A DNA stretch of 64,000 nt from an uncultured SAR86 cluster bacterium (GTDB taxonomy: Bacteria; Pseudomonadota; Gammaproteobacteria; Magnimaribacterales; D2472): NCBI GenBank assembly GCA_902541365.1, contig CACBQK010000002.1, positions 1,478 to 65,477 on the forward strand. Reading direction: 5' to 3'. The first letter of the stretch is position 1. Each line of letters begins with the position of its first letter. Positions 2,622 to 64,000 of the stretch are shown here, in pieces. Position numbers and translations under genes: made by a program. The notes under the pieces were generated by a model. It was not told where the DNA came from and did no database searches. It saw nothing but the letters and a program-made list of their open reading frames with translations.

Positions 2622-3956
2622 ATGATTACTTTAATTGCTTTTATAATTCTTTTGGGAGTCCTCGTTGTAATTCATGAGGGCGGTCATTTCTTTGTTCTAA
2701 GAATGTGTAAAGTACACGTTGATAGGTTTTCAGTTGGCATGGGCCCAGTTATTTTTAAAAAGAAAGATAAAAAAGGTACAGAATTTGCTCTATCAGCATT
2801 ACCGCTTGGTGGTTATGTGTCTTATTTATCAAAGAAAGCTTTAGATGCTGAACCGGAAATGAAAAAAAATTTTACTCCTGAACAATTAGATAACTTATTC
2901 GAAACCAAGCCGAAGTGGCAAAGAGCAGCTGTGATGTTTGCAGGTCCTCTTGCTAATTTTATACTTGCGGTAATTATATTCACTTTTATATTTTCATTTC
3001 AGCAAACAGTAAAACCGATTTTTCTTGTTGAAGATGAATATGTTTCTAGTTCTTCAATATCTGGTGATATCAATAATAACGATATTCTTGTTTCCATAAA
3101 TGGTGAGAAAATATCAAATCCTACAGAATATAGGCTTGCATTATTAGCTAATGCTGGCCTTACAGGCGATATAAAAGCAGGTTTTTTAAATGCTCAAAGT
3201 AATGAGGCATACTATAGAAATATAAGTGTTGTAGATTTTTTAAGTAATTCAGAGCAACAACAAGAACCAGAAAATTTTTTCCCGATTGAAATAAAATCTT
3301 ATATATCTCCAGAAATTGGCTCACTTTCAAGACAAGGACCAGCATCACTTGCTGGCGTTATGGCAGGTGACAAAATTCTAGAAATAGATGGTAAAAGGGT
3401 AAACCATTTTTCGGAGGTCTCAGACATCCTTATAGCTTCATCTAATAGCAGTGTTAATCTTGTAATTCAAAGAAAAGGAGAAATAAAAAACTTTTACATT
3501 AATACTGAGATTTCTGAAGATGGTACTCCAATCCTTGGCATCTCGGCAGCATACAAAAGATCTATTACCGAGGCTTTCGTAAAGTCTGTCAAAGATACTT
3601 ATAATCTGAGTGTAAAAACACTCCTGTTTATAGGAAAAATGATTACTGGAAATATGGGTGCAGAAAATCTTAGCGGTCCTGTTGGAATTGCAAAAATGTC
3701 TGGGGAGGCATTTAGTGCAGGCTTCTTACCTTTCTTATATTTAATGGCTATTTTAAGTATTAGTTTAGGAGTATTGAATTTGCTCCCAATTCCTGTTTTA
3801 GATGGCGGGCAATTGACCATGCTTGCTATAGAGGCAATAAGAGGCGAACCCCTGCCAACTAGAGTTGAAAACTTTACATATACTATTGGTGCATTAATGG
3901 TAGGATTTCTTCTTGTATTTGCTGTTACAAACGATATTTTTAGGTGGTTAGCTTGA
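2622..3956 (+). CDS. rseP: RIP intramembrane metalloprotease RseP
   Basis: HEGGH zinc motif, AGPLANF, PDZ region, LNLLPIPVLDGG. Confidence 0.97.
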   Translation: MITLIAFIILLGVLVVIHEGGHFFVLRMCKVHVDRFSVGMGPVIFKKKDKKGTEFALSALPLGGYVSYLSKKALDAEPEMKKNFTPEQLDNLFETKPKWQRAAVMFAGPLANFILAVIIFTFIFSFQQTVKPIFLVEDEYVSSSSISGDINNNDILVSINGEKISNPTEYRLALLANAGLTGDIKAGFLNAQSNEAYYRNISVVDFLSNSEQQQEPENFFPIEIKSYISPEIGSLSRQGPASLAGVMAGDKILEIDGKRVNHFSEVSDILIASSNSSVNLVIQRKGEIKNFYINTEISEDGTPILGISAAYKRSITEAFVKSVKDTYNLSVKTLLFIGKMITGNMGAENLSGPVGIAKMSGEAFSAGFLPFLYLMAILSISLGVLNLLPIPVLDGGQLTMLAIEAIRGEPLPTRVENFTYTIGALMVGFLLVFAVTNDIFRWLA

Positions 3957-6376
3957 AGAGCATATTTAAAAATCTGATCACTCTGTTCTTGATACTAAAT
4001 ATTAATTTTATTGAAGCATTTGAAGCATTTATTGTTAATGATATTCGTATAGCTGGCCTTCAAAGAGTTTCAACTGGAAGCATCTTTAATACTATTCCAA
4101 TATCTGTTGGTGATAAGATCGACGAACGTAAAGTCGTAGATATATCAAAAGCCCTTTTTGCTACAGAACAGTTTGATGATATTCAAATTGGTCGTGATGG
4201 AAACTCTTTAATAATTACTGTTGCAGAGAGACCATCAATATCCTCAATTGATATCTCAGGTAATAGCGCGCTTAAAACTGAAGTATTACTAGAAAGCTTT
4301 GATGGTATAGGTATTACAGAGGGACAGGTTTATAAAAGATCTACATTGGAAAAAATGAGGGCTGAATTAGTAAGATCATATTCTTCTCAAGGAAGATATG
4401 GAGCAGGTGTTGAGATTTATGAGACTACTCAGCCAAGAAACAGAGTCTCAATTGCTATTCAAATTGATGAGGGTGAGAGCGCTCAAATCGATAGAGTAAC
4501 AATTCTTGGTAACAAAATCTTTAGTGATGACGACTTGTTAGATGTTATGGAATTGAGTGAGGGAAGTTGGCTATCTTTTTTAACAAATGATAATCAGTAT
4601 TCAAGAGAAAAGTTACAGGGTGATATTGAGAACTTAGAATCATTTTATTTGGATAGAGGCTATCTTCAGTTTGCAATTGAATCAAGTCAGGTAAGTATTT
4701 CCAGAGACAGGAATAGTATATATATAACTTATATAATTTCAGAAGGCCCACAGTTCATTATTAATGAAGTAAAGATTATTGGAGATCTACCCTTAAATTC
4801 TGACATAGTTGATCCAATAATTAATACTCAAAATGATGTGATTTATTCTCAAGCACAAATTACTCAAATTGAAGAAATCTTTACAAGTCTTTTAGGTAAT
4901 GAGGGATATGCATTTGCATCAGTAAAAGGTCAACCATCAATTAATGAAGACTTACTCGAGGTTGATTTAAGTTTTGTTGTTGAGCCAGGCAAAAGAACTT
5001 ATGCAAGAAAAATTTTATTTGAAGGAAATCAGATTACACAAGATGATGTTTTAAGAAGGGAAATGCGTCAATTTGAAGGTGCTTGGGCATCTGATGACAA
5101 GATAGAACAATCCAGGGTTAGGTTAGAGAGACTTGGTTTTTTTAAAGATGTAAATGTTGAGACTATTCCAGTTCCTGGAACAGATGACCAAATAGATATT
5201 AAATTTAGGGTTGAAGAGGAGACAACAGGAAATGTTGGCGGAAATCTTGGTTACAGTGATTTTGGATTAATGATTGGATTTAATTTACAAGAAAGAAATT
5301 TTCTTGGAAGCGGGAACTCTGTAGGAATTGCTATTAACAAAAGTATCTACCAGGAGGTTTATAACATATCTTTTTATGATCCATACTTTACCATTGATGG
5401 AGTAAGTAGGGGATATAACCTCTACTATAGAAAGACAGATTATGGTGAATTTAATATTGCAAATTACACAGCCGACTCACAAGGGTTAGGAATTCAATTT
5501 GGATACCCCATTTCAGATACTCAAAGAATTGGACTTAACCTTACATATGATTTTACTGATGTCGATCAGGGTACACTTCCAGTTAGGGATATACTCGATT
5601 TTCTATTAGAAGAGGGAAATTCGTTTAAGACACTATCTGCGCAAGCAGTATGGTCAAGAATAACACTAAATAGGGGAATGTTTCCAACTGATGGAGCATC
5701 TACAGAAGCTTTGTTCCTAGCCACAATTCCAGTAAGCGATATCAACTATTACAAATTAAATATCAGACAAAAGTATTATGAACCTTTAGGTTTTTGGGAT
5801 CTTGTTTTTGGTTTTCAAGGAGAAATTGGATATCTAGCGCCATACGGAGATACAAATAATGTTCCTTTTTTTCAACACTTTTATGCTGGGGGTCCAAGAT
5901 CACTTAGAGGATTTGAATCGAATACTTTGGGGCCAAGAGCAACTCCCTCACCATGTTATCAGTTTGATTCAGTTAATGATTTGTGTCCACCCCTTATAGA
6001 CTCTAATTTCGATGGTGTTCCTGATACACCCGCTTATAATCAAAGTATTGTTTACCAAAGAGATGACCCAATCGGAGGAGATGTAAAAATTGAAGGAAGT
6101 ATGCAATTAATTTTCAAACTTCCTATGGTTGAAGATCAAAGATCAATGAGATCTGCACTATTTTTTGACTTTGGTAATGTATTTGCAATGGAGTGTAGAG
6201 ACTATCAGGTTAGTTGCTATAAGCCTAGCTTTGACGAACTTAGATACTCTGTTGGTGTAGGGTTAACTTGGATTACTGGGTTTGGCCCAATGAGCTTTGC
6301 CATTTCAAAACCTTACAATGAAGACAGATATGAAAGGACGGAAGAGTTTCAATTTACTATAGGAACAGTGTTTTAA
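3944..6376 (+). CDS. bamA: Outer membrane protein assembly factor BamA (true start may be TTG at 3953)
   Basis: Signal peptide, POTRA repeats (IRIAGLQRVS, DDVLRREMRQFEG), loop-6 LRGFESNTLGPR, C-terminal FQFTIGTVF. Confidence 0.98.
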   Translation: MVSLKSIFKNLITLFLILNINFIEAFEAFIVNDIRIAGLQRVSTGSIFNTIPISVGDKIDERKVVDISKALFATEQFDDIQIGRDGNSLIITVAERPSISSIDISGNSALKTEVLLESFDGIGITEGQVYKRSTLEKMRAELVRSYSSQGRYGAGVEIYETTQPRNRVSIAIQIDEGESAQIDRVTILGNKIFSDDDLLDVMELSEGSWLSFLTNDNQYSREKLQGDIENLESFYLDRGYLQFAIESSQVSISRDRNSIYITYIISEGPQFIINEVKIIGDLPLNSDIVDPIINTQNDVIYSQAQITQIEEIFTSLLGNEGYAFASVKGQPSINEDLLEVDLSFVVEPGKRTYARKILFEGNQITQDDVLRREMRQFEGAWASDDKIEQSRVRLERLGFFKDVNVETIPVPGTDDQIDIKFRVEEETTGNVGGNLGYSDFGLMIGFNLQERNFLGSGNSVGIAINKSIYQEVYNISFYDPYFTIDGVSRGYNLYYRKTDYGEFNIANYTADSQGLGIQFGYPISDTQRIGLNLTYDFTDVDQGTLPVRDILDFLLEEGNSFKTLSAQAVWSRITLNRGMFPTDGASTEALFLATIPVSDINYYKLNIRQKYYEPLGFWDLVFGFQGEIGYLAPYGDTNNVPFFQHFYAGGPRSLRGFESNTLGPRATPSPCYQFDSVNDLCPPLIDSNFDGVPDTPAYNQSIVYQRDDPIGGDVKIEGSMQLIFKLPMVEDQRSMRSALFFDFGNVFAMECRDYQVSCYKPSFDELRYSVGVGLTWITGFGPMSFAISKPYNEDRYERTEEFQFTIGTVF

Positions 6377-30977: not shown

Positions 30978-32453
30978 ATGCATGCTTCATCAGATATATT
31001 AGGTCATCCAAAAGGTTTATTTGTTTGCTTTGCAACAGAGATGTGGGAAAGATTTTCTTACTACGGTATGAGAGCTCTTTTAATTTTGTATCTTACAAAG
31101 CACTGGGAGTTCTCTGATGCAACAAGTTACCTTATTTATGGAGCATACACCTCATTAGTATACATAATGCCGGTTTTTGGAGGGATGCTAGCTGACCAAA
31201 TCTTAGGATCAAAAAAAGCTGTAACCTATGGTGCAATACTTTTGGTTTTTGGTCATTTAGGAATGACTGTTGAAAGCAATGAACAGATTTTCTATTTATC
31301 CCTAGCCTTAATTGTATCTGGCGTAGGGTTTTTAAAACCAAATATTTCAACAATGGTTGGAGCTTTATATGAGCAGGGCGATCCAAGAAGAGATTCTGGT
31401 TTTACTATCTTTTATATGGGGATCAATATCGGTGCGTTTACTGCGACTCTCCTATGCGGATATCTTGGAGAAGAAATAGGTTGGGCCTGGGGCTTTGGAG
31501 CTGCTGGAATAGGAATGTTGTTGGGATTGATTATATTTCTCTGGGGGCAAAAATATCTTGAAGGATTAGCAGAACCGCCTTCTGAAAAATATAAAGAAAA
31601 GAAAGCAGGTATTACCTTTGAGAACTGGGCTTATATTTCTGGGATCATAATGGTTTTAACAACATGGTTTCTTGTTCAAAACTCACAACTTGTTGGACAA
31701 CTTCTTGGAGGATTTGGATTCATATTTATTGGAGCTTGGTTAATATATGCTTTATTCAAATGTGATCCTGAAGAAAGAGATCGTTTAATAGTAGTTGGGA
31801 TATTAATATTATTTTCATTAATTTTCTGGGCTCTTTTTGAACAGGCTGGATCTTCACTAAATATACTTACTGATAGAGGTGTAGACAGAGTTATTCTTGG
31901 CTGGGAAGTCCCTGCTTCAATGTTCCAATCCTTGAACGCAGGCTTTATTTTCACTATAGCACCACTTTTTGCTCTTCTTTGGATAGCACTTGCAAAAAGA
32001 AATATGGAGCCTTCCACTCCAATTAAGTTTTCAATTGGCATTGTTTTTGTTGGGCTTGGTTTCTTAGCGCTTGTTTATGGAATGAAATCGTCAGAGGGCT
32101 TACAGACAGGAGTAGTATGGATAATATTGATTTATTTACTTCATACTTTAGGTGAGCTATGTCTTTCTCCAGTAGGCTTATCATCAGTGACTAAATTATC
32201 ACCCCAAAGAATTGTTGGATTTATGATGGGTATGTGGTTTTTTGCATCGGCAGCTGGAAACTATGTAGCAGGATTAATAGCAAGAGCAACATCATCAGAA
32301 AGTTCTGGTGTTTCTGGAGAAGTTTATAATCTAGCTCAAAAGCAGTCATTTATAGATGTTTATACTGATGTTGGTTTAATGGCGATTGGATGCGGTATTG
32401 TTTTAGCTTTAATTACTCCTTTGCTTAAGAAATTAATGCATGGTTCCAGCTAA
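30978..32453 (+). CDS. POT/PTR family proton-dependent oligopeptide transporter
   Basis: ExxERFxYY motif (TEMWERFSYYGMR), GFLKPNIS, FYMGINIG, ELCLSPVGLS. Confidence 0.97.
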   Translation: MHASSDILGHPKGLFVCFATEMWERFSYYGMRALLILYLTKHWEFSDATSYLIYGAYTSLVYIMPVFGGMLADQILGSKKAVTYGAILLVFGHLGMTVESNEQIFYLSLALIVSGVGFLKPNISTMVGALYEQGDPRRDSGFTIFYMGINIGAFTATLLCGYLGEEIGWAWGFGAAGIGMLLGLIIFLWGQKYLEGLAEPPSEKYKEKKAGITFENWAYISGIIMVLTTWFLVQNSQLVGQLLGGFGFIFIGAWLIYALFKCDPEERDRLIVVGILILFSLIFWALFEQAGSSLNILTDRGVDRVILGWEVPASMFQSLNAGFIFTIAPLFALLWIALAKRNMEPSTPIKFSIGIVFVGLGFLALVYGMKSSEGLQTGVVWIILIYLLHTLGELCLSPVGLSSVTKLSPQRIVGFMMGMWFFASAAGNYVAGLIARATSSESSGVSGEVYNLAQKQSFIDVYTDVGLMAIGCGIVLALITPLLKKLMHGSS

Positions 32454-32568
32454 TAGAAAAAGAGATCCTGTTAAGAAAAATATGGATAAATTCCATAAAC
32501 CAAAGACTCATAAAGATAAATCAAAATACAGTAGAAAGGAAAAATTTAAGCCGATTGATGAACTTTAA
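32440..32568 (+). CDS. Small basic protein, 42 aa (missed by the ORF track)
   Basis: ATG at 32440 to TAA at 32566-32568 gives MVPANRKRDPVKKNMDKFHKPKTHKDKSKYSRKEKFKPIDEL. It exactly fills the gap between two convergent genes. Confidence 0.7.
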   Translation: MVPANRKRDPVKKNMDKFHKPKTHKDKSKYSRKEKFKPIDEL

Positions 32569-33682
32569 TTAGTATCTTTTTATATATTTCTTTTAAAATA
32601 CTTAGGTCTTCAATATCGACATGTTCATCAATTTGATGGATGGTTTTATTTAGAGGCCCAAGCTCAACTATCTCTGATCCCATTGGCGCAACCCATCTTC
32701 CATCAGATGTACCACCTCCATTATCAATTTTAGTATCGATATTATTTATTTCCTTAATTGATGACTTAACAATATCTATGAATTCAGTTTTTGCAGTCAA
32801 AAATGGAAGGGCGCTAAGTGTCCAACTCACATTATATTTAAGATCTGATTTTTTTAACAATGCCTCAAATTTTTCCTTGAGTCCGTCTGGAGATGACTCT
32901 GGTGAAAACCTAAAATTGAAAGTCATTTCCAAAACTCCAGGCACTACATTTTCAGCTCCTGTTCCAGATTTAATATTTGAAACCTGAAAACTTGTTGGTT
33001 CAAAATTTTCATTCCCGCGATCCCATTCCATATTTTTTAGTTCTTCTAATGTTCTACCTATTCCCAAGATCGGATTTAATGCTTGCTTTGGATATGCAAC
33101 ATGACCCTGAATACCATATACTTTAAGATTACCTGAAAGCGAACCTCTTCTTCCAATCCTTATAACATCACCAACTTTTTTTGATGAACTAGGTTCACCA
33201 ATTAAACAGAAATCTATAAATTTATCTTTATCAATCATCTCATTGATCACCCTATCAACTTTCCCATTTTCTAACTTACCTTCTTCATTACTATTTAATA
33301 AAACCATAATGTTAAAAGAGGGGTCTTTGTTCTCAGAAAGAAACTCTTTAAGAGCAGAGATAAAACAAGCTACTCCGCCTTTCATATCAGCAGCTCCTCT
33401 TCCATAAATCTTATTATCTTTAATCTCGCCTGAAAAAGGTGGAACACTCCACTCACTTTCAGGACCAGGAGGAACAACATCCGTATGGCCTAAAAAACAA
33501 AAAGTTTTATTTTTTGAATCTCCATTGGTGATAATTAGGTTACTAATATTTTTATAATTTGTTTCTTCAAAAGAAAAATCTAAACCATCAAATTGTTGCT
33601 TAATAACATCAAAGCAACCGTTGTCATTTGGACTAATGGATTCAATTTTTATTAATTTTTTAAGAAGTTCTAAATTACTCAC
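32546..33682 (-). CDS. dapE: Succinyl-diaminopimelate desuccinylase
   Basis: GHTDVVP, GRGAADMKG, SNEEG, IGRRGS, QGHVAYP, GGTSDGR, IHQIDE. Confidence 0.97.
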   Translation of the reverse strand: MSNLELLKKLIKIESISPNDNGCFDVIKQQFDGLDFSFEETNYKNISNLIITNGDSKNKTFCFLGHTDVVPPGPESEWSVPPFSGEIKDNKIYGRGAADMKGGVACFISALKEFLSENKDPSFNIMVLLNSNEEGKLENGKVDRVINEMIDKDKFIDFCLIGEPSSSKKVGDVIRIGRRGSLSGNLKVYGIQGHVAYPKQALNPILGIGRTLEELKNMEWDRGNENFEPTSFQVSNIKSGTGAENVVPGVLEMTFNFRFSPESSPDGLKEKFEALLKKSDLKYNVSWTLSALPFLTAKTEFIDIVKSSIKEINNIDTKIDNGGGTSDGRWVAPMGSEIVELGPLNKTIHQIDEHVDIEDLSILKEIYKKILIKVHQSA

Positions 33683-49879: not shown

Positions 49880-49923
49880 ATATAAAAGAAATTAGTTGTT
49901 AATATCTTTAAATACCTTTAAGC

Positions 49924-49991
49924 TACGCACTCAAACTTTAGACATGTGAGGTTTGACGGGTGTAAATAAATAAAAATGCATGTCCTAGGAG
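49924..49991 (+). promoter_or_regulatory. rpsO (S15) leader with predicted H-type pseudoknot
   Basis: S1: TCAAAC 49931-36 pairs with GTTTGA 49951-56. S2: loop GACATGT 49941-47 pairs with GCATGTC 49978-84, next to the AGGAG RBS at 49987-91. Confidence 0.65.
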
Positions 49992-49998
49992 AATAATT

Positions 49999-50268
49999 AT
50001 GGCGCTTTTAAAAGACGAAAAAGCTGACTTAGTCAAAAAATTTCAGAAGTATGAAAACGATACTGGATCTTCAGAGGTTCAGATAGCTTTGCTTACAGAA
50101 AATATTAATAAACTTCAAAGTCATTTCAAGACACATAAAAAAGATCATCACTCAAGAACAGGTCTAATAAGGATGGTTAATCTTAGAAGGAAACTTTTAG
50201 CATATTTAAAAAGAACTAATCCTGAAAGCTATAAAAAAATTATTTCAGACCTTAATTTAAGAGGATAA
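49999..50268 (+). CDS. rpsO: 30S ribosomal protein S15
   Basis: [29 protein letters not shown]. Confidence 0.99.
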
Positions 50269-50271
50269 AAC

Positions 50272-52356: not shown

Positions 52357-52384
52357 AATTCTAAAAGTCAAATTGCGTTAAATA

Positions 52385-52413
52385 TTGCATTGAGGTAATT
52401 TGAAAACTAATAT
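52385..52413 (+). promoter_or_regulatory. Sigma70 promoter of small membrane protein gene 1
   Basis: TTGCAT-17 nt-TAATAT. Confidence 0.55.
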
Positions 52414-52464
52414 CAATTTTGGTTTCATATGCGTGTTAACCATTACCTTTATAGGGGGGGAATT

Positions 52465-52683
52465 ATGGATAATGCAATGAAAATGATTGGTGATATAGTA
52501 TCAAGTCTTACAAAGATCCTTGTTGCTGTTATCGGATTAGGTGTTGTAGCTGGTATCGTTTTTGGTGATACTTGGTTCTTCGGCGATGTTCTTTCAAATC
52601 TTCTAGGTGTTGTTTCATCACTTGGCGATGCTGGACTCGTTGGATTACTTGTTGCTGCTATCCTAATAGGATTGCTTAAGTAA
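52465..52683 (+). CDS. Small hydrophobic membrane protein, 72 aa (paralog 1)
   Basis: AGGGGGGG RBS then ATG at 52465 (MDNAMK...); two hydrophobic, Gly-rich segments. Confidence 0.85.
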   Translation: MDNAMKMIGDIVSSLTKILVAVIGLGVVAGIVFGDTWFFGDVLSNLLGVVSSLGDAGLVGLLVAAILIGLLK

Positions 52684-52695
52684 TCATTTATTGTT

Positions 52696-52723
52696 TCAAA
52701 GGGAGATTAATTTCTCCCTTTGA
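52696..52723 (+). terminator. Perfect 11-bp hairpin, probable terminator or processing stem
   Basis: TCAAAGGGAGA-TTAATT-TCTCCCTTTGA, 12 nt after the stop of paralog 1. Confidence 0.75.
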
Positions 52724-52738
52724 CTTAAAATCTCTAGA

Positions 52739-52975
52739 ATGAAGTTAGATTTTTACTATTCATTAAATAAAATAAAAAGTTACCTTAAACAGGTCACAGA
52801 CGTTCTTTTAGTTGTAGTCGCAGTTGCCCTATTACTTGGAGTTCTTTTTGGTCCTGATGCTCCATTTGTTGGAGCAGTTTATTCAAATATTGTTACCATA
52901 TTAGATACCATAGGAGATAGCGGAGTAGTTGCTCTGGTATCCTTGATAATAATTTTTTTAATAAATAAGAAGTAG
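52739..52975 (+). CDS. Small hydrophobic membrane protein, 78 aa (paralog 2)
   Basis: Aligns by eye to paralog 1 (LFG..PFVG.VYSN...IGDSGVV vs VFG..WFFG.VLSN...LGDAGLV). Confidence 0.8.
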   Translation: MKLDFYYSLNKIKSYLKQVTDVLLVVVAVALLLGVLFGPDAPFVGAVYSNIVTILDTIGDSGVVALVSLIIIFLINKK

Positions 52976-52979
52976 AAAT

Positions 52980-53056
52980 TGGTGGCTATGGGTGGAATTG
53001 AACCACCGACCCCAGCGTTATGAGTGCTGTGCTCTAACCATCTGAGCTACATAGCC
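52980..53056 (-). tRNA. Elongator tRNA-Met(CAT)
   Basis: Reverse complement GGCTATGTAGCTCAGATGGTTAGAGCACAGCACTCATAACGCTGGGGTCGGTGGTTCAATTCCACCCATAGCCACCA. The GGCUA acceptor matches elongator Met rather than Ile2. Confidence 0.95.
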
Positions 53057-53067
53057 ATTGACCCGAA

Positions 53068-53095
53068 ATAATAATTTACTCTCGATAAAAGTCAA
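53068..53095 (-). promoter_or_regulatory. Sigma70 promoter of tRNA-Met
   Basis: Minus strand TTGACT-16 nt-TATTAT followed by a GC-rich discriminator; the -35 box overlaps the ychF TGA stop. Confidence 0.6.
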
Positions 53096-54183: not shown

Positions 54184-54184
54184 A

Positions 54185-54739
54185 TTAATTCACTAAGTTT
54201 TGAAGATTATCTATTTCTAGGCTAAATATTCTATCTTTGTGAGCTATGATCTTTTTGTATAAGTCCTCAAGAAGCTGAGCCTCTTCAGGTTTAAATTTAC
54301 TTAAAACCCAATTTGTAACTTCATTCTTTTTACCGGGGTGACTAACGCCAATTTTTAACCTTTTAAAGTCTTTCCCAATGACATTTGATAAATCTTTTAA
54401 TCCATTATGACCGCCATCTCCACCTCCAGATTTAAACTTTGCTTGACCAATCTGTGTATCAATGTCGTCATGAAATACTAAAATCTGCTCTGGTTTAGCA
54501 TTAAGGTATCTTTTGAGCAATAAAACAACTTTGCCAGTCTCATTTACATAGACATCAGGTAGAACTAAATATACTTGTGGTTTTATCTCACAAATACTGC
54601 ATTTAAGTTTTGATTTTTTTACGAAAGATAGATCATGATCTTTGGCAATTTTTTCAACCCAATCTTTTCCAACATTATGCCTAGTATTGTTATATTTTTG
54701 TTCTGGATTTCCGATTCCAAGAATAAATACCTTTTGCAC
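54185..54739 (-). CDS. pth: Peptidyl-tRNA hydrolase (likely GTG start at 54739)
   Basis: GIGNPEQKYNNTRHNVG, HDDID, GGHNGLKD, VTNWVL. Confidence 0.96.
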   Translation of the reverse strand: MQKVFILGIGNPEQKYNNTRHNVGKDWVEKIAKDHDLSFVKKSKLKCSICEIKPQVYLVLPDVYVNETGKVVLLLKRYLNAKPEQILVFHDDIDTQIGQAKFKSGGGDGGHNGLKDLSNVIGKDFKRLKIGVSHPGKKNEVTNWVLSKFKPEEAQLLEDLYKKIIAHKDRIFSLEIDNLQNLVN

Positions 54740-54746
54740 AGAGCAA

Positions 54747-62656: not shown

Positions 62657-62669
62657 GGGAGGAATAATT

Positions 62670-64000
62670 ATGTTATTAGGAGATATGCAAGACTGGAAAC
62701 CAAATGTTGCAAGCATTATAGAGTATGCTGCAGATATTTATCCTGAGTCTGAAGTAGTAAGTAAATTAGTAAGTGGTGAAGTCCATAGGACTAACTATAA
62801 AGAGGTATGTGTTAGATCAAGGAAGTTAGCTTCAAAGCTTTCTCAAGATGGTTATAAACAAGGAGATGTCATCGCCACTCTTGCTCTAAACACTTTTAGA
62901 CATCTTGAGGCATATTATGGTGTTTCAGGAATGGGCGCAGTTGTTCATACTTTGAATTTTAGATTACATCCCGAGCAGGCAGTTTACATTATTAATCATG
63001 CTGAGGACAAAGTAATCTTTGTTGAGGCACCTTTTGTTCCTATCCTAGAGGCGCTTCAAGAAAACCTCACTACTGTTGAGAAATATATTGTCTTTTGCAA
63101 TAAAGATGAGATGCCTGAAACTTCTCTCAAAAATTGTTTGTCATATGAAGAATATATTGAAGATGGTGATGAAAATTTTGTCTGGCCAGACCTTCCTGAT
63201 AATGCAGCTTGTGGACTTTGCTATACATCGGGCACAACAGGAAATCCAAAAGGAGTTTTATATTCACATAAATCGACAATTCTTCACGCAATTTCAGCAG
63301 CTGGACCAAAGGCTTTAAAAATTGAAGGAGATGACTCTGTTTTAATGGTTGTTCCTATGTTCCACGTTATGGCATGGGGAGTTCCATACTATGGTGCAAT
63401 TTATGGACTTAAAATTGTAATGCCTGGAATGGCAATGGATGGTGAGTCTCTCTATGAAATGTGCAAGGAGGAGAAGGTAACACTTGCCTTTGGGGTGCCA
63501 ACAGTTTGGATGCAGCTATTAGGGTATTGTAGAGAAAATAATGTTGTCCTTGAATCAATGAATAGTACTGTAATAGGAGGTTCAGCAGTAACAGTAGCAA
63601 TGATAAAAGAGTTTGATCAAGTACATGGAGTAACCGTTCTTCAAGGATGGGGCATGACTGAGATGAGCCCTCTTGGAACAACAAATTTTCCAACACCTGA
63701 AATGGAAAATATGCCTGATGATGAAAAATATGCAATTCAAGTTAAAGCAGGTAAACCTGTTTTTGGTGTAGAAATGAAAATTGTTGACCCTGATGGAAAT
63801 ACTTTACCAAATGATGGTAAGGCTTCAGGAAGCCTATTAGTAAGAGGCCCTTGGATTATTAAAAAATATTTTAAAGCTGAGGAGGATGCTGTAGATAAAG
63901 ATGGTTGGTTTGATACCGGTGATATATCATCTATAGATCCAGATGGATATATGTCTATTGTTGATAGAGAAAAAGATGTCATTAAATCAGGTGGTGAATG
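62670..64000 (+). CDS. AMP-forming acyl-CoA ligase, AlkK/DmdB-like (3'-partial; not in the ORF track)
   Basis: GGGAGG RBS then MLLGDMQDWKPNVASIIEYAA. Motifs HLEAYYGVSG.GAV.HTLNFRL, CYTSGTTGNPKG, QGWGMTE, WFDTGD and DREKDVIKSGGE run to the window end. Confidence 0.95.
   Translation, partial: MLLGDMQDWKPNVASIIEYAADIYPESEVVSKLVSGEVHRTNYKEVCVRSRKLASKLSQDGYKQGDVIATLALNTFRHLEAYYGVSGMGAVVHTLNFRLHPEQAVYIINHAEDKVIFVEAPFVPILEALQENLTTVEKYIVFCNKDEMPETSLKNCLSYEEYIEDGDENFVWPDLPDNAACGLCYTSGTTGNPKGVLYSHKSTILHAISAAGPKALKIEGDDSVLMVVPMFHVMAWGVPYYGAIYGLKIVMPGMAMDGESLYEMCKEEKVTLAFGVPTVWMQLLGYCRENNVVLESMNSTVIGGSAVTVAMIKEFDQVHGVTVLQGWGMTEMSPLGTTNFPTPEMENMPDDEKYAIQVKAGKPVFGVEMKIVDPDGNTLPNDGKASGSLLVRGPWIIKKYFKAEEDAVDKDGWFDTGDISSIDPDGYMSIVDREKDVIKSGGE

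What the first reader, a model, noticed from the sequence alone, without database searches (positions are those of the whole stretch)
32440..32568. Hidden 42-aa lysine-rich microprotein between the peptide transporter and dapE
MVPANRKRDPVKKNMDKFHKPKTHKDKSKYSRKEKFKPIDEL has 15 K/R in 42 residues. It overlaps the transporter stop by 14 nt and the dapE 3' end by 23 nt, explaining a 92-bp gap in a genome where convergent genes usually abut. I recall similar PV.K.M.KF.KP.TH.DK..Y.RK peptides among marine bacterial and phage hypotheticals, but cannot verify this. Size, charge and the basic ..Y.RK tail are reminiscent of ArfA-type ribosome-rescue or ribosome-binding peptides (inference). It is a candidate unannotated translation factor.
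Basis: partly seen in the sequence, partly recalled or inferred. Interest (0 to 1): 0.7.

Follow-up and report, generated by a model that had tools for sequence, protein, structure and literature searches.

The report
Conserved SAR86 microprotein, family DUF7230
The 42-codon reading frame is a real, strongly conserved gene of the marine SAR86 bacteria; it belongs to a catalogued family of tiny basic proteins (Pfam DUF7230) that is otherwise carried mostly by phages, its function is unknown, and its likeness to the ribosome-rescue factor ArfA is weak and unproven.

Summary
The ORF at 32440..32568 (+) is exactly as described: 42 aa, 15 K/R, a 14-nt overlap with the POT permease gene and a 23-nt overlap with the convergent M20/dapE-like gene.

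It is a real gene. It is intact in all 59 SAR86 species genomes fetched. It is also intact in 75 of 79 informative metagenome loci that were picked through the POT gene alone. Synteny (lptG-RDD-POT-[peptide]-dapE) holds in 57 of 59 genomes. The 26-codon core DPVKKNMDKFHKPKTHKDKTKYxRK has pN/pS 0.09 (dN/dS about 0.03) with synonymous sites near saturation.

It passes the threshold of Pfam DUF7230 (29.2 vs 27 bits), and public gene calls already include it. Most of the family's diversity is in phages: marine T4-like and T7-like contigs, T5-like vibriophages, and jumbo and rV5-like phages of enterobacteria, Pseudomonas, Xanthomonas and Acinetobacter. Nothing in the family is characterised.

ArfA membership is not supported. 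There is no Pfam ArfA hit, no KGKGS motif and no mRNA hairpin. Only a 17-23-residue tail resemblance (K.K.KY.RK.KH) remains, reproducible but sub-threshold.

Best guess: a small RNA-binding, probably ribosome-binding, peptide. This is inferred, not shown.

The parts
32440..32568 (+). DUF7230 microprotein gene (42 codons plus stop)
   Evidence: The ORF is listed. It hits Pfam PF23876 at 29.2 bits against a cutoff of 27. It is intact in 59 SAR86 genomes and in 75 of 79 loci picked independently of it.
32464..32538 (+). Conserved core, residues D9-K33 (DPVKKNMDKFHKPKTHKDKSKYSRK)
   Evidence: Seventeen columns are invariant across 31 homologues. The per-codon table shows many synonymous codons with unchanged amino acids; pS is 0.70, pN is 0.063 and dN/dS is about 0.03.
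32467..32496 (+). Predicted short amphipathic helix, residues 10-19 (PVKKNMDKFH); the rest of the protein is predicted extended
   Evidence: AlphaFold2 with a 46-sequence alignment gives helix 10-19. Mean pLDDT is 88 for residues 11-20 and 71 overall. This is a prediction only.
32440..32453 (+). 14-nt overlap of the start codon with the end of the POT gene (AATGCATGG...TAA); probable translational coupling
   Evidence: The sequence is. The same TAATGCATGG junction is present in most syntenic SAR86 loci. No SD-like motif lies upstream and no promoter-like site was found in 32000-32440 on the + strand. Coupling itself is inferred.
30978..32453 (+). Upstream co-oriented POT/PTR2 peptide permease gene
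   Evidence: PF00854 at E 1.4e-70. It lies upstream of the microprotein gene in 57 of 59 SAR86 genomes.
32546..33682 (-). Convergent M20 peptidase (dapE-like) gene whose 3' end overlaps the microprotein gene by 23 nt
   Evidence: PF01546 and PF07687. It is syntenic in 56 of 59 SAR86 genomes, plus L006, where the contig ends before it.

Best explanation
SHOWN. 32440..32568 encodes a genuine, vertically inherited protein of 40-47 aa found across the SAR86 clade of marine Gammaproteobacteria. It sits at a fixed housekeeping locus (lptG-RDD-POT-[gene]-dapE). It is under very strong purifying selection and is a member of Pfam DUF7230. That family is made up mostly of small early-region or replication-region proteins of lytic phages.

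INFERRED.
- The gene is probably expressed from the POT transcript by translational coupling, because its ATG lies 14 nt inside the POT gene.
- The protein is probably a short amphipathic helix (residues 10-19) followed by an extended Lys/Arg/His-rich segment.
- That shape would let it dock on a highly conserved polyanionic cellular machine.
- I commit to RNA, most likely the ribosome, as the target. The protein would act as a small translation-associated accessory or modulator.
- Phages would carry their own copies, often with an added acidic tail, to act on the same target during infection.

My sub-confidences are: real gene 0.97; DUF7230 member 0.95; nucleic-acid binder about 0.6; ribosome as the target about 0.3.
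For: - Real gene: the ORF is intact in 59 of 59 SAR86 genomes and in the window.
- Unbiased sample: 75 of 79 metagenome loci chosen only through the POT C-terminus carry an intact ORF.
- Selection: pS 0.70 against pN 0.063 over 26 codons in 50 distinct sequences.
- Relative conservation: the core stays nearly invariant while the neighbouring proteins drop to about 25-30% (lptG), 45-55% (RDD) and 50-60% (dapE) identity.
- Family: the peptide scores 29.2 bits against a 27-bit cutoff for PF23876, and all 46 diverse members hit it. There are 884 homologues in the large database and 143 representative clusters.
- Phage carriage: T4-like, T7-like, T5-like, jumbo and rV5-like phages. There are 129 IMG/VR contigs. 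PHROGs 1359, 6310, 4586 and 5724 are all of unknown function.
- No conserved partner gene was found, so the target is probably a host component.
- Shape: helix 10-19 followed by an extended segment.
- Hint towards the ribosome: there is a reproducible but sub-threshold likeness of the tail to the part of ArfA that, according to the literature, lies in the mRNA channel (PMC6299226 read).
- Analogy: some of the same phage contigs also carry ribosomal protein S21.
Against: - No experiment and no significant homology links the family to any function.
- The family has no relative among PDB sequences, which include the ribosome-bound ArfA chains matched.
- In phages the gene lies among replication and nucleotide-metabolism genes (gp45/gp44 clamp and loader, primase-helicase, RNase H, thymidylate synthase), not next to translation genes.
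- The ArfA-like Y.RK.KH stretch is the less conserved half of the family and is missing in some phage members.
- Rare loss or frameshift of the gene in SAR86 relatives (L232, L216) argues against strict essentiality.
- The structure model has only moderate confidence (pLDDT 71, pTM 0.30).
- Translational coupling was not tested.
Confidence: 0.4

Rival explanations
1. It is an ArfA-type (or ArfT-like) alternative ribosome-rescue factor. The basic tail would enter the empty mRNA channel of a ribosome stalled on a nonstop mRNA, and the N-terminal helix would recruit a release factor. It could be either a remote ArfA homologue or a convergent analogue.
For: - Size and charge are similar to ArfA and ArfT.
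- E. coli ArfA's only Pfam hit besides its own family is DUF7230 (E 0.11, 13.1 bits, ArfA residues 29-51).
- hhalign aligns the same register, HkDKtKYxRKxKHk against kKGKGSYxRKgKH, with P 0.0024.
- The ArfA tail beats 1999 of 2000 composition-matched shuffles against a DUF7230 HMM.
- XacN1 ORF023 ends ...DYKRKEKHAKKGWE, against ArfA ...SYMRKGKHGNRGNWE.
- The cultured phages that carry the family all infect Gammaproteobacteria. ArfA is reported from beta- and gammaproteobacteria; this last point rests on my own knowledge.
Against: - None of 46 members hits Pfam ArfA at E<=10.
- hhalign probabilities are only 2.7% and 12%.
- PDB profile searches do not recover ArfA.
- The KGKGS motif is absent, and the ArfA N-terminal, RF2-binding half cannot be aligned.
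- There is no stable hairpin in the mRNA (z +0.79), so ArfA-style RNase III/tmRNA regulation is not evident.
- The resemblance was what prompted the comparison, so the shuffle p-values are inflated by selection.
- The tail is variable or replaced by an acidic tail in many phage members.
Confidence: 0.12
2. It is a DNA-associated or replisome-associated small protein. It would be either a nucleoid-binding peptide or an adaptor that binds a conserved replication component. SAR86 would use it as a chromosomal accessory and phages would use it in their replication modules.
For: - Phage copies sit between primase and DnaB-type helicase next to PolA.
- Other phage copies lie next to the gp45 clamp and gp44 loader.
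- In T5-like vibriophages the gene lies between RNase H and an exonuclease, near thymidylate synthase.
- The most frequent neighbours in 86 viral loci are, judged by eye from their sequences, SSB-like, clamp, clamp-loader and primase-helicase proteins.
- Many phage versions combine the basic N-terminal part with an acidic C-terminal tail. This recalls the polarity of phage SSBs; that comparison rests on my own knowledge.
Against: - The neighbours differ between phage lineages, and none is conserved across them.
- Position in an early or replication block is typical of many unrelated small host-takeover genes.
- The invariance of specific non-charged residues (N, P, V, M, F, H, T, Y) argues for a specific structured target rather than generic DNA coating.
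- The SAR86 locus has no replication genes nearby.
Confidence: 0.2
3. It is a domesticated phage gene that works in phage-host conflict. It would act as a small protein-protein inhibitor or decoy (defence, counter-defence or superinfection exclusion) aimed at a conserved protein rather than at nucleic acid.
For: - Most of the family's diversity is in lytic phages, in early regions rich in ORFans.
- One cellular homologue is the first gene of a type III-B Cmr operon beside RT-Cas1/Cas2.
- Two phage lineages have the gene within about 1-3 kb of RNA ligase and polynucleotide kinase genes.
Against: - Defence genes are usually patchy and fast-evolving. This gene is fixed at a housekeeping locus across deep SAR86 divergence with dN/dS of about 0.03.
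- The peptide alone was not scanned against the PADLOC library.
- Only one CRISPR-linked example was seen.
Confidence: 0.12
4. It is a locus-specific accessory of the neighbouring genes, for example a regulator or partner of the POT permease or the dapE-like peptidase.
For: - It lies immediately downstream of POT in 57 of 59 SAR86 genomes, and its start overlaps the POT stop region.
Against: - The protein is hydrophilic and highly basic, unlike known small membrane-protein partners of transporters.
- Family members occur in hundreds of phages and in other loci with no POT or dapE.
- The gene persists downstream of a POT gene that is only about 40% identical in some SAR86 lineages.
Confidence: 0.04
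5. It is not a gene. It would be a chance lysine-rich ORF in AT-rich intergenic DNA, or the conservation would reflect an RNA or terminator element.
For: - Lys-rich ORFs are common at 33% GC.
- There is no SD motif.
Against: - Amino acids are conserved through many synonymous codon changes.
- The frame is intact in more than 130 independent loci.
- No RNA structure is predicted (z +0.79), no Rfam family matches there and no terminator-like site is found.
- The ORF has a Pfam hit above threshold.
Confidence: 0.01

Closest known systems
Pfam DUF7230 (PF23876), which corresponds to PHROGs 1359, 6310, 4586 and 5724
   Same: The window protein passes the family's gathering threshold. It shares the core NPV.K....F.KP..H.D+.K, the small size and the basic charge.
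   Different: The SAR86 proteins form a chromosomal, syntenic, vertically inherited branch with an almost invariant 24-26-residue core. Most other members are phage-borne, more variable, and often carry an acidic C-terminal extension or are embedded in longer proteins. The family has no described function.
ArfA (alternative ribosome-rescue factor A, Pfam PF03889)
   Same: Both are small and basic. A short predicted helix is followed by an extended Lys/Arg tail. The local motif K.K.KY.RK.KH resembles KGKGSYMRKGKH, with sub-threshold scores. Both occur in a gammaproteobacterial setting.
   Different: There is no significant sequence relationship. The KGKGS motif is absent and the N-terminal RF2-binding half cannot be aligned. 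No mRNA hairpin for RNase III/tmRNA-dependent regulation is predicted. The activity was not tested.
ArfT of Francisella tularensis (40 aa; PMC6299226)
   Same: It has the same size class (40 aa) and a basic C-terminal stretch, and it was missed by annotation pipelines. It is precedent that very small ORFs can be rescue factors.
   Different: The ArfT motif quoted in the paper (KKGGSTNKK) is not present here. The authors found ArfT only in Francisella.
Phage T7 gp1.1 (Pfam Phage_1_1, PF08200)
   Same: It is a 42-aa, very basic early phage protein of unknown function with a loosely similar NK.K..RDR stretch.
   Different: It belongs to a separate Pfam family and a separate PHROG family, with no cross-hits. 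There is no evidence of homology.
Phage-encoded ribosomal protein bS21 (as seen on contigs L060 and L061)
   Same: It is an example of a small basic protein of the host translation apparatus that marine phages also encode. It co-occurs on the same T4-like contigs as DUF7230.
   Different: There is no sequence similarity; the Pfam scans gave no Ribosomal_S21 hit. bS21 is a known ribosomal protein, whereas ribosome binding by DUF7230 is only a hypothesis.

Membership tests
Pfam DUF7230 (PF23876) | Score at or above the curated gathering threshold of the family model | tested here: met
   The peptide scores 29.2 bits against a cutoff of 27, E 1e-6, residues 9-37. All 46 aligned relatives hit the model, with a best E of 6e-16.
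Pfam DUF7230 (PF23876) | Conserved core motif N/D-P-V-x-K-x4-F/L-x-K/R-P ... H-x-D-K/R-x-K in a protein of roughly 35-100 aa | tested here: met
   Alignments A1, A2 and A4 show V11 invariant and N9, K13 and P21 conserved in at least 90% of members across the diverse set. The window protein has DPVKKNMDKFHKPKTHKDK.
ArfA (PF03889) | Significant match to the ArfA family profile | tested here: not met
   No ArfA hit at E<=10 for the peptide or for any of 46 relatives. hhalign against an ArfA alignment gives probabilities of 2.7% and 12.3%.
ArfA (PF03889) | Conserved KGKGS motif in the C-terminal tail that occupies the mRNA channel | tested here: not met
   The aligned stretch reads KDKSKY or KDKTKY. 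No G-K-G-S is present. Only the following Y.RK.K(H) is shared.
ArfA (PF03889) | N-terminal/central segment (E. coli residues about 15-31) that binds RF2 | tested here: inconclusive
   No alignment to this part of ArfA was obtained by any method. A helix is predicted at residues 10-19, but its equivalence to the ArfA segment cannot be judged from sequence.
ArfA (PF03889) | Regulatory stem-loop in the 3' part of the ORF, so that the active protein is made from a truncated nonstop mRNA | tested here: not met
   Folding 32420-32640 gives -28.6 kcal/mol against a shuffle mean of -32.0, z +0.79. No terminator-like site was found. The 3' codons vary freely between SAR86 lineages.
ArfA (PF03889) | RF2-dependent hydrolysis of peptidyl-tRNA on nonstop ribosomes; synthetic lethality with ssrA | not testable with these tools
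   This needs biochemistry or genetics.
ArfT (Francisella) | Sequence similarity to F. tularensis ArfT, including the KKGGSTNKK tail | tested here: not met
   The motif quoted in PMC6299226 is absent from the peptide.
Phage_1_1 (T7 gp1.1, PF08200) | Match to the family profile | tested here: not met
   gp1.1 hits only PF08200 and phrog_2490. DUF7230 members hit neither of these.

The most novel reading that the evidence does not exclude
DUF7230 could be a previously unrecognised class of ribosome-targeting microprotein shared between a major marine bacterial clade and many lytic phages of Gammaproteobacteria. One version is a release-factor-dependent rescue factor distantly related or convergent to ArfA. 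Another is a factor that frees or reprograms ribosomes after the RNA damage caused by infection or by RNA-targeting defence systems. The second version would also explain two contexts seen here: a copy at the head of a type III-B CRISPR operon, and copies near phage RNA-repair genes.
Probability: 0.15. Interest if true: 0.8.

Novelty: new member of a known kind. Interest (0 to 1): 0.45.

Why it matters
SAR86 is one of the most abundant uncultured bacterial groups of the surface ocean and has a streamlined genome. A 42-aa protein kept almost unchanged while neighbouring essential genes diverge to 25-55% identity is likely to touch a core process.

The same family is present in hundreds of cultured phages, including E. 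coli phages (121Q and the BASEL phage Bas57), Salmonella phages and Pseudomonas phages. The function of this DUF could therefore be worked out in standard laboratory systems and then carried over to SAR86.

If the weak ArfA-like tail reflects real ribosome binding, the family would add a new and widespread player to bacterial and phage control of translation. If it does not, it is still a well-defined, testable orphan family shared between hosts and phages.

Tried and rejected
- **Chance ORF or RNA element:** rejected by synonymous-change analysis, frame intactness, and the absence of Rfam, terminator or structure signals.
- **ArfA homology:** Pfam, hhalign and PDB profile searches gave no significant match. 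Only a sub-threshold tail likeness remains.
- **T7 gp1.1 relationship (recalled from memory):** the sequence was confirmed, but there is no cross-family hit.
- **Ribosomal S21, Thx or other known small-protein families:** nothing besides DUF7230 appeared in Pfam at E<=10, and NCBIfam gave nothing.
- **Conserved partner gene in phages:** none was found.
- **Plasmid carriage:** no match.
- **Phage search with the long acidic-tail variant:** tblastn found nothing, probably because of low-complexity masking. Two other family members used as queries did find phages.
- **Viral-contig scan with the diverse alignment A2:** it failed for lack of a conserved word and was rerun with A1.
- **Literature:** no paper mentions DUF7230, PF23876 or the motif.
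- **Foldseek:** not run, because a 42-residue model with one 10-residue helix would give meaningless matches.
- **SD motif:** absent, but only 13 of 56 long ORFs in the window show one, against a background of 12.6%, so this is uninformative.
Full report
**Observation**

The window is AT-rich, about 30-38% GC. At 32440..32568 (+) there is an ATG-initiated ORF of 42 codons that encodes MVPANRKRDPVKKNMDKFHKPKTHKDKSKYSRKEKFKPIDEL.

- It has 15 K/R residues.
- It overlaps the last 14 nt of a POT/PTR2 permease gene at 30978..32453 (PF00854).
- It overlaps the last 23 nt of a convergent M20 peptidase (dapE-like) gene at 32546..33682 (PF01546 and PF07687).
- The gap between those two genes is 92 bp. 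Four other convergent pairs of long ORFs in the window abut, with gaps of -6 to +3 bp.

All numbers in the finding are correct.

By composition alone the ORF would not stand out. Two other ORFs of 42-60 aa in the window also reach 15 K/R. However, it is one of only two such ORFs, out of 105, that lie mostly outside long ORFs.

**Is it a gene?**

A search of 5.8 billion proteins with the peptide returned 53 homologues. Most are 40-42 aa and many already carry the precomputed Pfam tag PF23876.

A pattern scan of one genome per species found the gene in 59 genomes. Nearly all are labelled SAR86 cluster, which identifies the organism behind the window.

- The frame is open in all 59. Some lineages use an alternative TTG start or a shorter ATG start.
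- In 57 of 59 the gene sits in the same place: lptG - RDD - POT - [gene] - dapE (convergent).
- Across these genomes the neighbouring proteins fall to about 25-30% (LptG), 35-55% (RDD), 50-60% (DapE-like) and 40-92% (POT) identity to the window.
- Meanwhile the 24-26-residue core (D/N)PVKKNMDK(F/L)HKPKTH(K/R)DK(T/S)KYxRK hardly changes.

The codon table shows that this is protein-level selection. Pro is encoded by four codons, Val by three, Thr by four, Arg by four, and Lys, His, Asp and Tyr by both of theirs, all with the amino acid unchanged. Over 50 distinct sequences pS = 0.70 and pN = 0.063, so dN/dS is about 0.03 after correction.

Those loci had been selected through the peptide itself, so I drew an independent sample. 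I picked 80 metagenome loci using only the C-terminal 151 residues of POT. One has no downstream sequence, which leaves 79:

- 75 carry an intact ORF.
- 1 runs off the contig end.
- 1 is frameshifted in A-runs (L216).
- 1 has lost the gene (L232).
- 1 is truncated by a rearrangement or an assembly chimera (L222).

The region shows no RNA structure beyond shuffled controls (z = +0.79). It has no Rfam match and no terminator-like site.

The gene is real. The rare losses show it is not indispensable in every lineage.

**What family?**

The peptide passes the curated threshold of Pfam DUF7230, with 29.2 bits against 27. NCBIfam has nothing.

An exhaustive profile search found 143 representative clusters. 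A profile search of the large database found 884 proteins. No source gives any of them a functional name. No paper mentions the family or its motif.

The family consensus is (R/K)NPV(A/K)K(N/H)(M/L)xxF(N/H)KPxTHxD(K/R)xK, often followed by YxRKxKHK.

**Where else is it?**

Mostly in phages.

Metagenomic contigs:
- T4-like contigs with DNA polymerase B, UvsX, Cpn10, thymidylate synthase and ribosomal protein S21.
- T4-like contigs with Rnl1-type RNA ligase, PNK and rIIB.
- T4-like contigs with the gp45 clamp and gp44 clamp loader.
- T7-like contigs, where the gene lies between a primase-like gene and the DnaB-type helicase next to PolA.
- ORFan-rich phage-like contigs.
- IMG/VR holds at least 129 contigs with close relatives.

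Cultured phages, found by tblastn in more than 400 genomes, all infecting Gammaproteobacteria:
- T5-like vibriophages, where it lies between RNase H and an exonuclease.
- Jumbo phages 121Q (gp410), Munch, PA5oct, CBB and XacN1.
- rV5-like E. coli phages, including BASEL Bas57.
- Acinetobacter phages.

The PHROG families that match (1359, 6310, 4586, 5724) are all of unknown function. Many phage versions add an acidic C-terminal tail, and a few embed the motif in longer proteins, one of them with an HNH domain. No plasmid copy was found.

No neighbouring gene is conserved across phage lineages, so the protein probably acts on a host component rather than with a phage partner.

Cellular contexts outside the SAR86 core locus were rare:
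- A long acidic-tail paralogue lies on a SAR86 single-cell contig and on a related MAG contig (L050 and L051).
- A 45-aa member forms the first gene of a type III-B Cmr operon next to RT-Cas1/Cas2.

**Test of the ArfA idea**

My recalled E. coli ArfA sequence is identical to PDB 5H5U chain 3.

Evidence against membership:
- None of 46 diverse DUF7230 members, nor the peptide, hits Pfam ArfA at E<=10.
- hhalign against an ArfA alignment gives a probability of 2.7% with A2 and 12.3% with A4, which was enriched for KHK-type members. That ArfA alignment covered Enterobacteriaceae only and had low diversity.
- Profile searches of all PDB sequences do not recover ArfA or any other ribosome-bound factor.
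- The KGKGS motif is absent.
- The RF2-binding half of ArfA has no counterpart that can be aligned.
- No regulatory hairpin is predicted.

Membership of the ArfA family is therefore not supported.

A narrower resemblance is reproducible:
- E. coli ArfA's only Pfam hit besides its own family is DUF7230 (E 0.11, 13.1 bits, ArfA residues 29-51).
- hhalign aligns the same register, HkDKtKYxRKxKHk against kKGKGSYxRKgKH, with P 0.0024.
- Against composition-matched shuffles, the ArfA tail is reached by 1 of 2000 when scored with a DUF7230 HMM. The peptide is reached by 57 of 2000 when scored with an ArfA HMM.
- Xanthomonas phage XacN1 ORF023 ends DYKRKEKHAKKGWE, against ArfA SYMRKGKHGNRGNWE.

The resemblance was the reason for making the comparison, so these p-values are optimistic. 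The stretch is also the less conserved half of the family and is missing in some phage members. It could reflect remote homology, convergence on a similar binding site, or chance.

According to the paper read (PMC6299226), this part of ArfA lies in the empty mRNA channel. That is the only pointer to the ribosome.

**Structure**

AlphaFold2 with the family alignment predicts one short helix at residues 10-19 (block pLDDT 88). The rest is extended, with mean pLDDT 71 and pTM 0.30. This is compatible with a peptide that folds on its target.

**Expression**

The ATG lies 14 nt inside POT. The junction TAATGCATGG is conserved in most SAR86 lineages. No promoter-like site or SD motif precedes it, although SD motifs are scarce throughout this window.

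Translational coupling to POT is the simplest reading, but it is inferred. In phages the start also usually overlaps the upstream gene.

**Best explanation and rivals**

Shown:
- It is a real, vertically inherited SAR86 gene under strong purifying selection.
- It is a member of DUF7230.
- The family is shared with many lytic phages.

Inferred:
- The protein is a small docking peptide made of a helix plus a basic extended segment.
- It binds a highly conserved polyanionic machine.
- I favour RNA, and the ribosome in particular, at about 0.3 for the ribosome and about 0.6 for any nucleic acid.

Reasons for favouring the ribosome are the extreme conservation, which is typical of ribosome-contacting peptides, the ArfA-like tail, and the precedent of phage-borne S21.

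The main rival is a DNA-linked or replisome-linked role (0.2), suggested by the gene's position in phage replication modules. An ArfA-like rescue function is a specific sub-hypothesis (0.12). A role in phage-host conflict (0.12) and a POT/dapE-specific role (0.04) are less likely. A non-coding explanation is excluded.

**Novelty and verdict**

The protein and its family are already catalogued, in Pfam as a DUF and in JGI, ENA and Tara gene calls. It is therefore not hidden, and it counts as a member of a known but uncharacterised kind.

What seems new here:
- A deeply conserved, syntenic chromosomal branch in SAR86, in a family that is otherwise mostly phage-borne.
- The weak link to the ArfA tail.

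Interest is moderate, at 0.45. The function is unknown but directly testable in E. coli, Salmonella and Pseudomonas phage systems.

Noticed in passing
L072 3002-3139 and L073 2979-3116 (metagenome contigs): A 45-aa DUF7230 member (P0365) is the first gene of a type III-B CRISPR-Cas (Cmr) operon. Its stop abuts the start of a Cas_NE0113-family gene, which is followed by RAMP and Cas10/Cmr2 genes. An RT-Cas1/Cas2 adaptation module lies divergently upstream. Two contigs share this arrangement.
   Followed up: partly
L050 3358-3555 and L051 (about 3949-4189): A second, longer DUF7230 variant (65-80 aa, acidic tail of the phage type) lies on a SAR86 single-cell contig and on a related MAG contig. 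The context is not syntenic: HIT-family, HNH-like and ECF sigma-factor-like genes, and none of the six core-locus genes (lptG, RDD, POT, dapE, map, carA). It may be a genomic island or a mis-binned mobile element.
   Followed up: partly
window 30978-32453 and loci L001-L059: The POT permease is much better conserved across SAR86 (mostly 84-92% identity) than its neighbours LptG (about 25-30%), RDD (about 45-55%) and the DapE-like protein (about 50-60%). A minority of lineages carry a POT only about 40% identical in the same slot. This could reflect unusually strong constraint or gene replacement.
   Followed up: no
L216 and L232 (metagenome loci): These are rare relatives in which the microprotein gene is frameshifted in A-runs (L216) or degraded to unrecognisable A-rich sequence (L232), while POT and the downstream gene remain. 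L222 fuses the first 17 codons to an unrelated ORF with a twin-arginine-like signal, which is probably an assembly chimera.
   Followed up: partly
L164 about 2500-2650 (Vibrio phage 70E37.6, MW824426): The DUF7230 ORF (…VRNPVARHLRTFNRASVQNDRTKYTRQNHVNWLDEYEPP…) lies largely in the unannotated gap between CDS 2271-2516 and CDS 2752-2985 of the GenBank record; its 5' end overlaps the upstream CDS. The family is therefore sometimes missed by phage annotation.
   Followed up: partly
L060 9513-9788 and L061 7065-7340: Marine T4-like phage contigs that carry DUF7230 also encode ribosomal protein S21, Cpn10, thymidylate synthase and dCMP deaminase.
   Followed up: no
L064 5198-7448: In a T7-like contig that has an integrase, the DUF7230 gene is wedged between a 268-aa gene that looks by eye like a zinc-finger/TOPRIM primase and the DnaB-type helicase gene. 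It overlaps both by 4 nt.
   Followed up: no
window 49880-50271, 52357-53091, 54184-54746, 62657-63408: These intergenic stretches of 392-752 bp have no ORF of 100 aa or more. One of them holds tRNA-Met (52980-53056). The rest were not examined for small genes or RNAs, and Rfam at gathering threshold found only tRNAs in the window.
   Followed up: no
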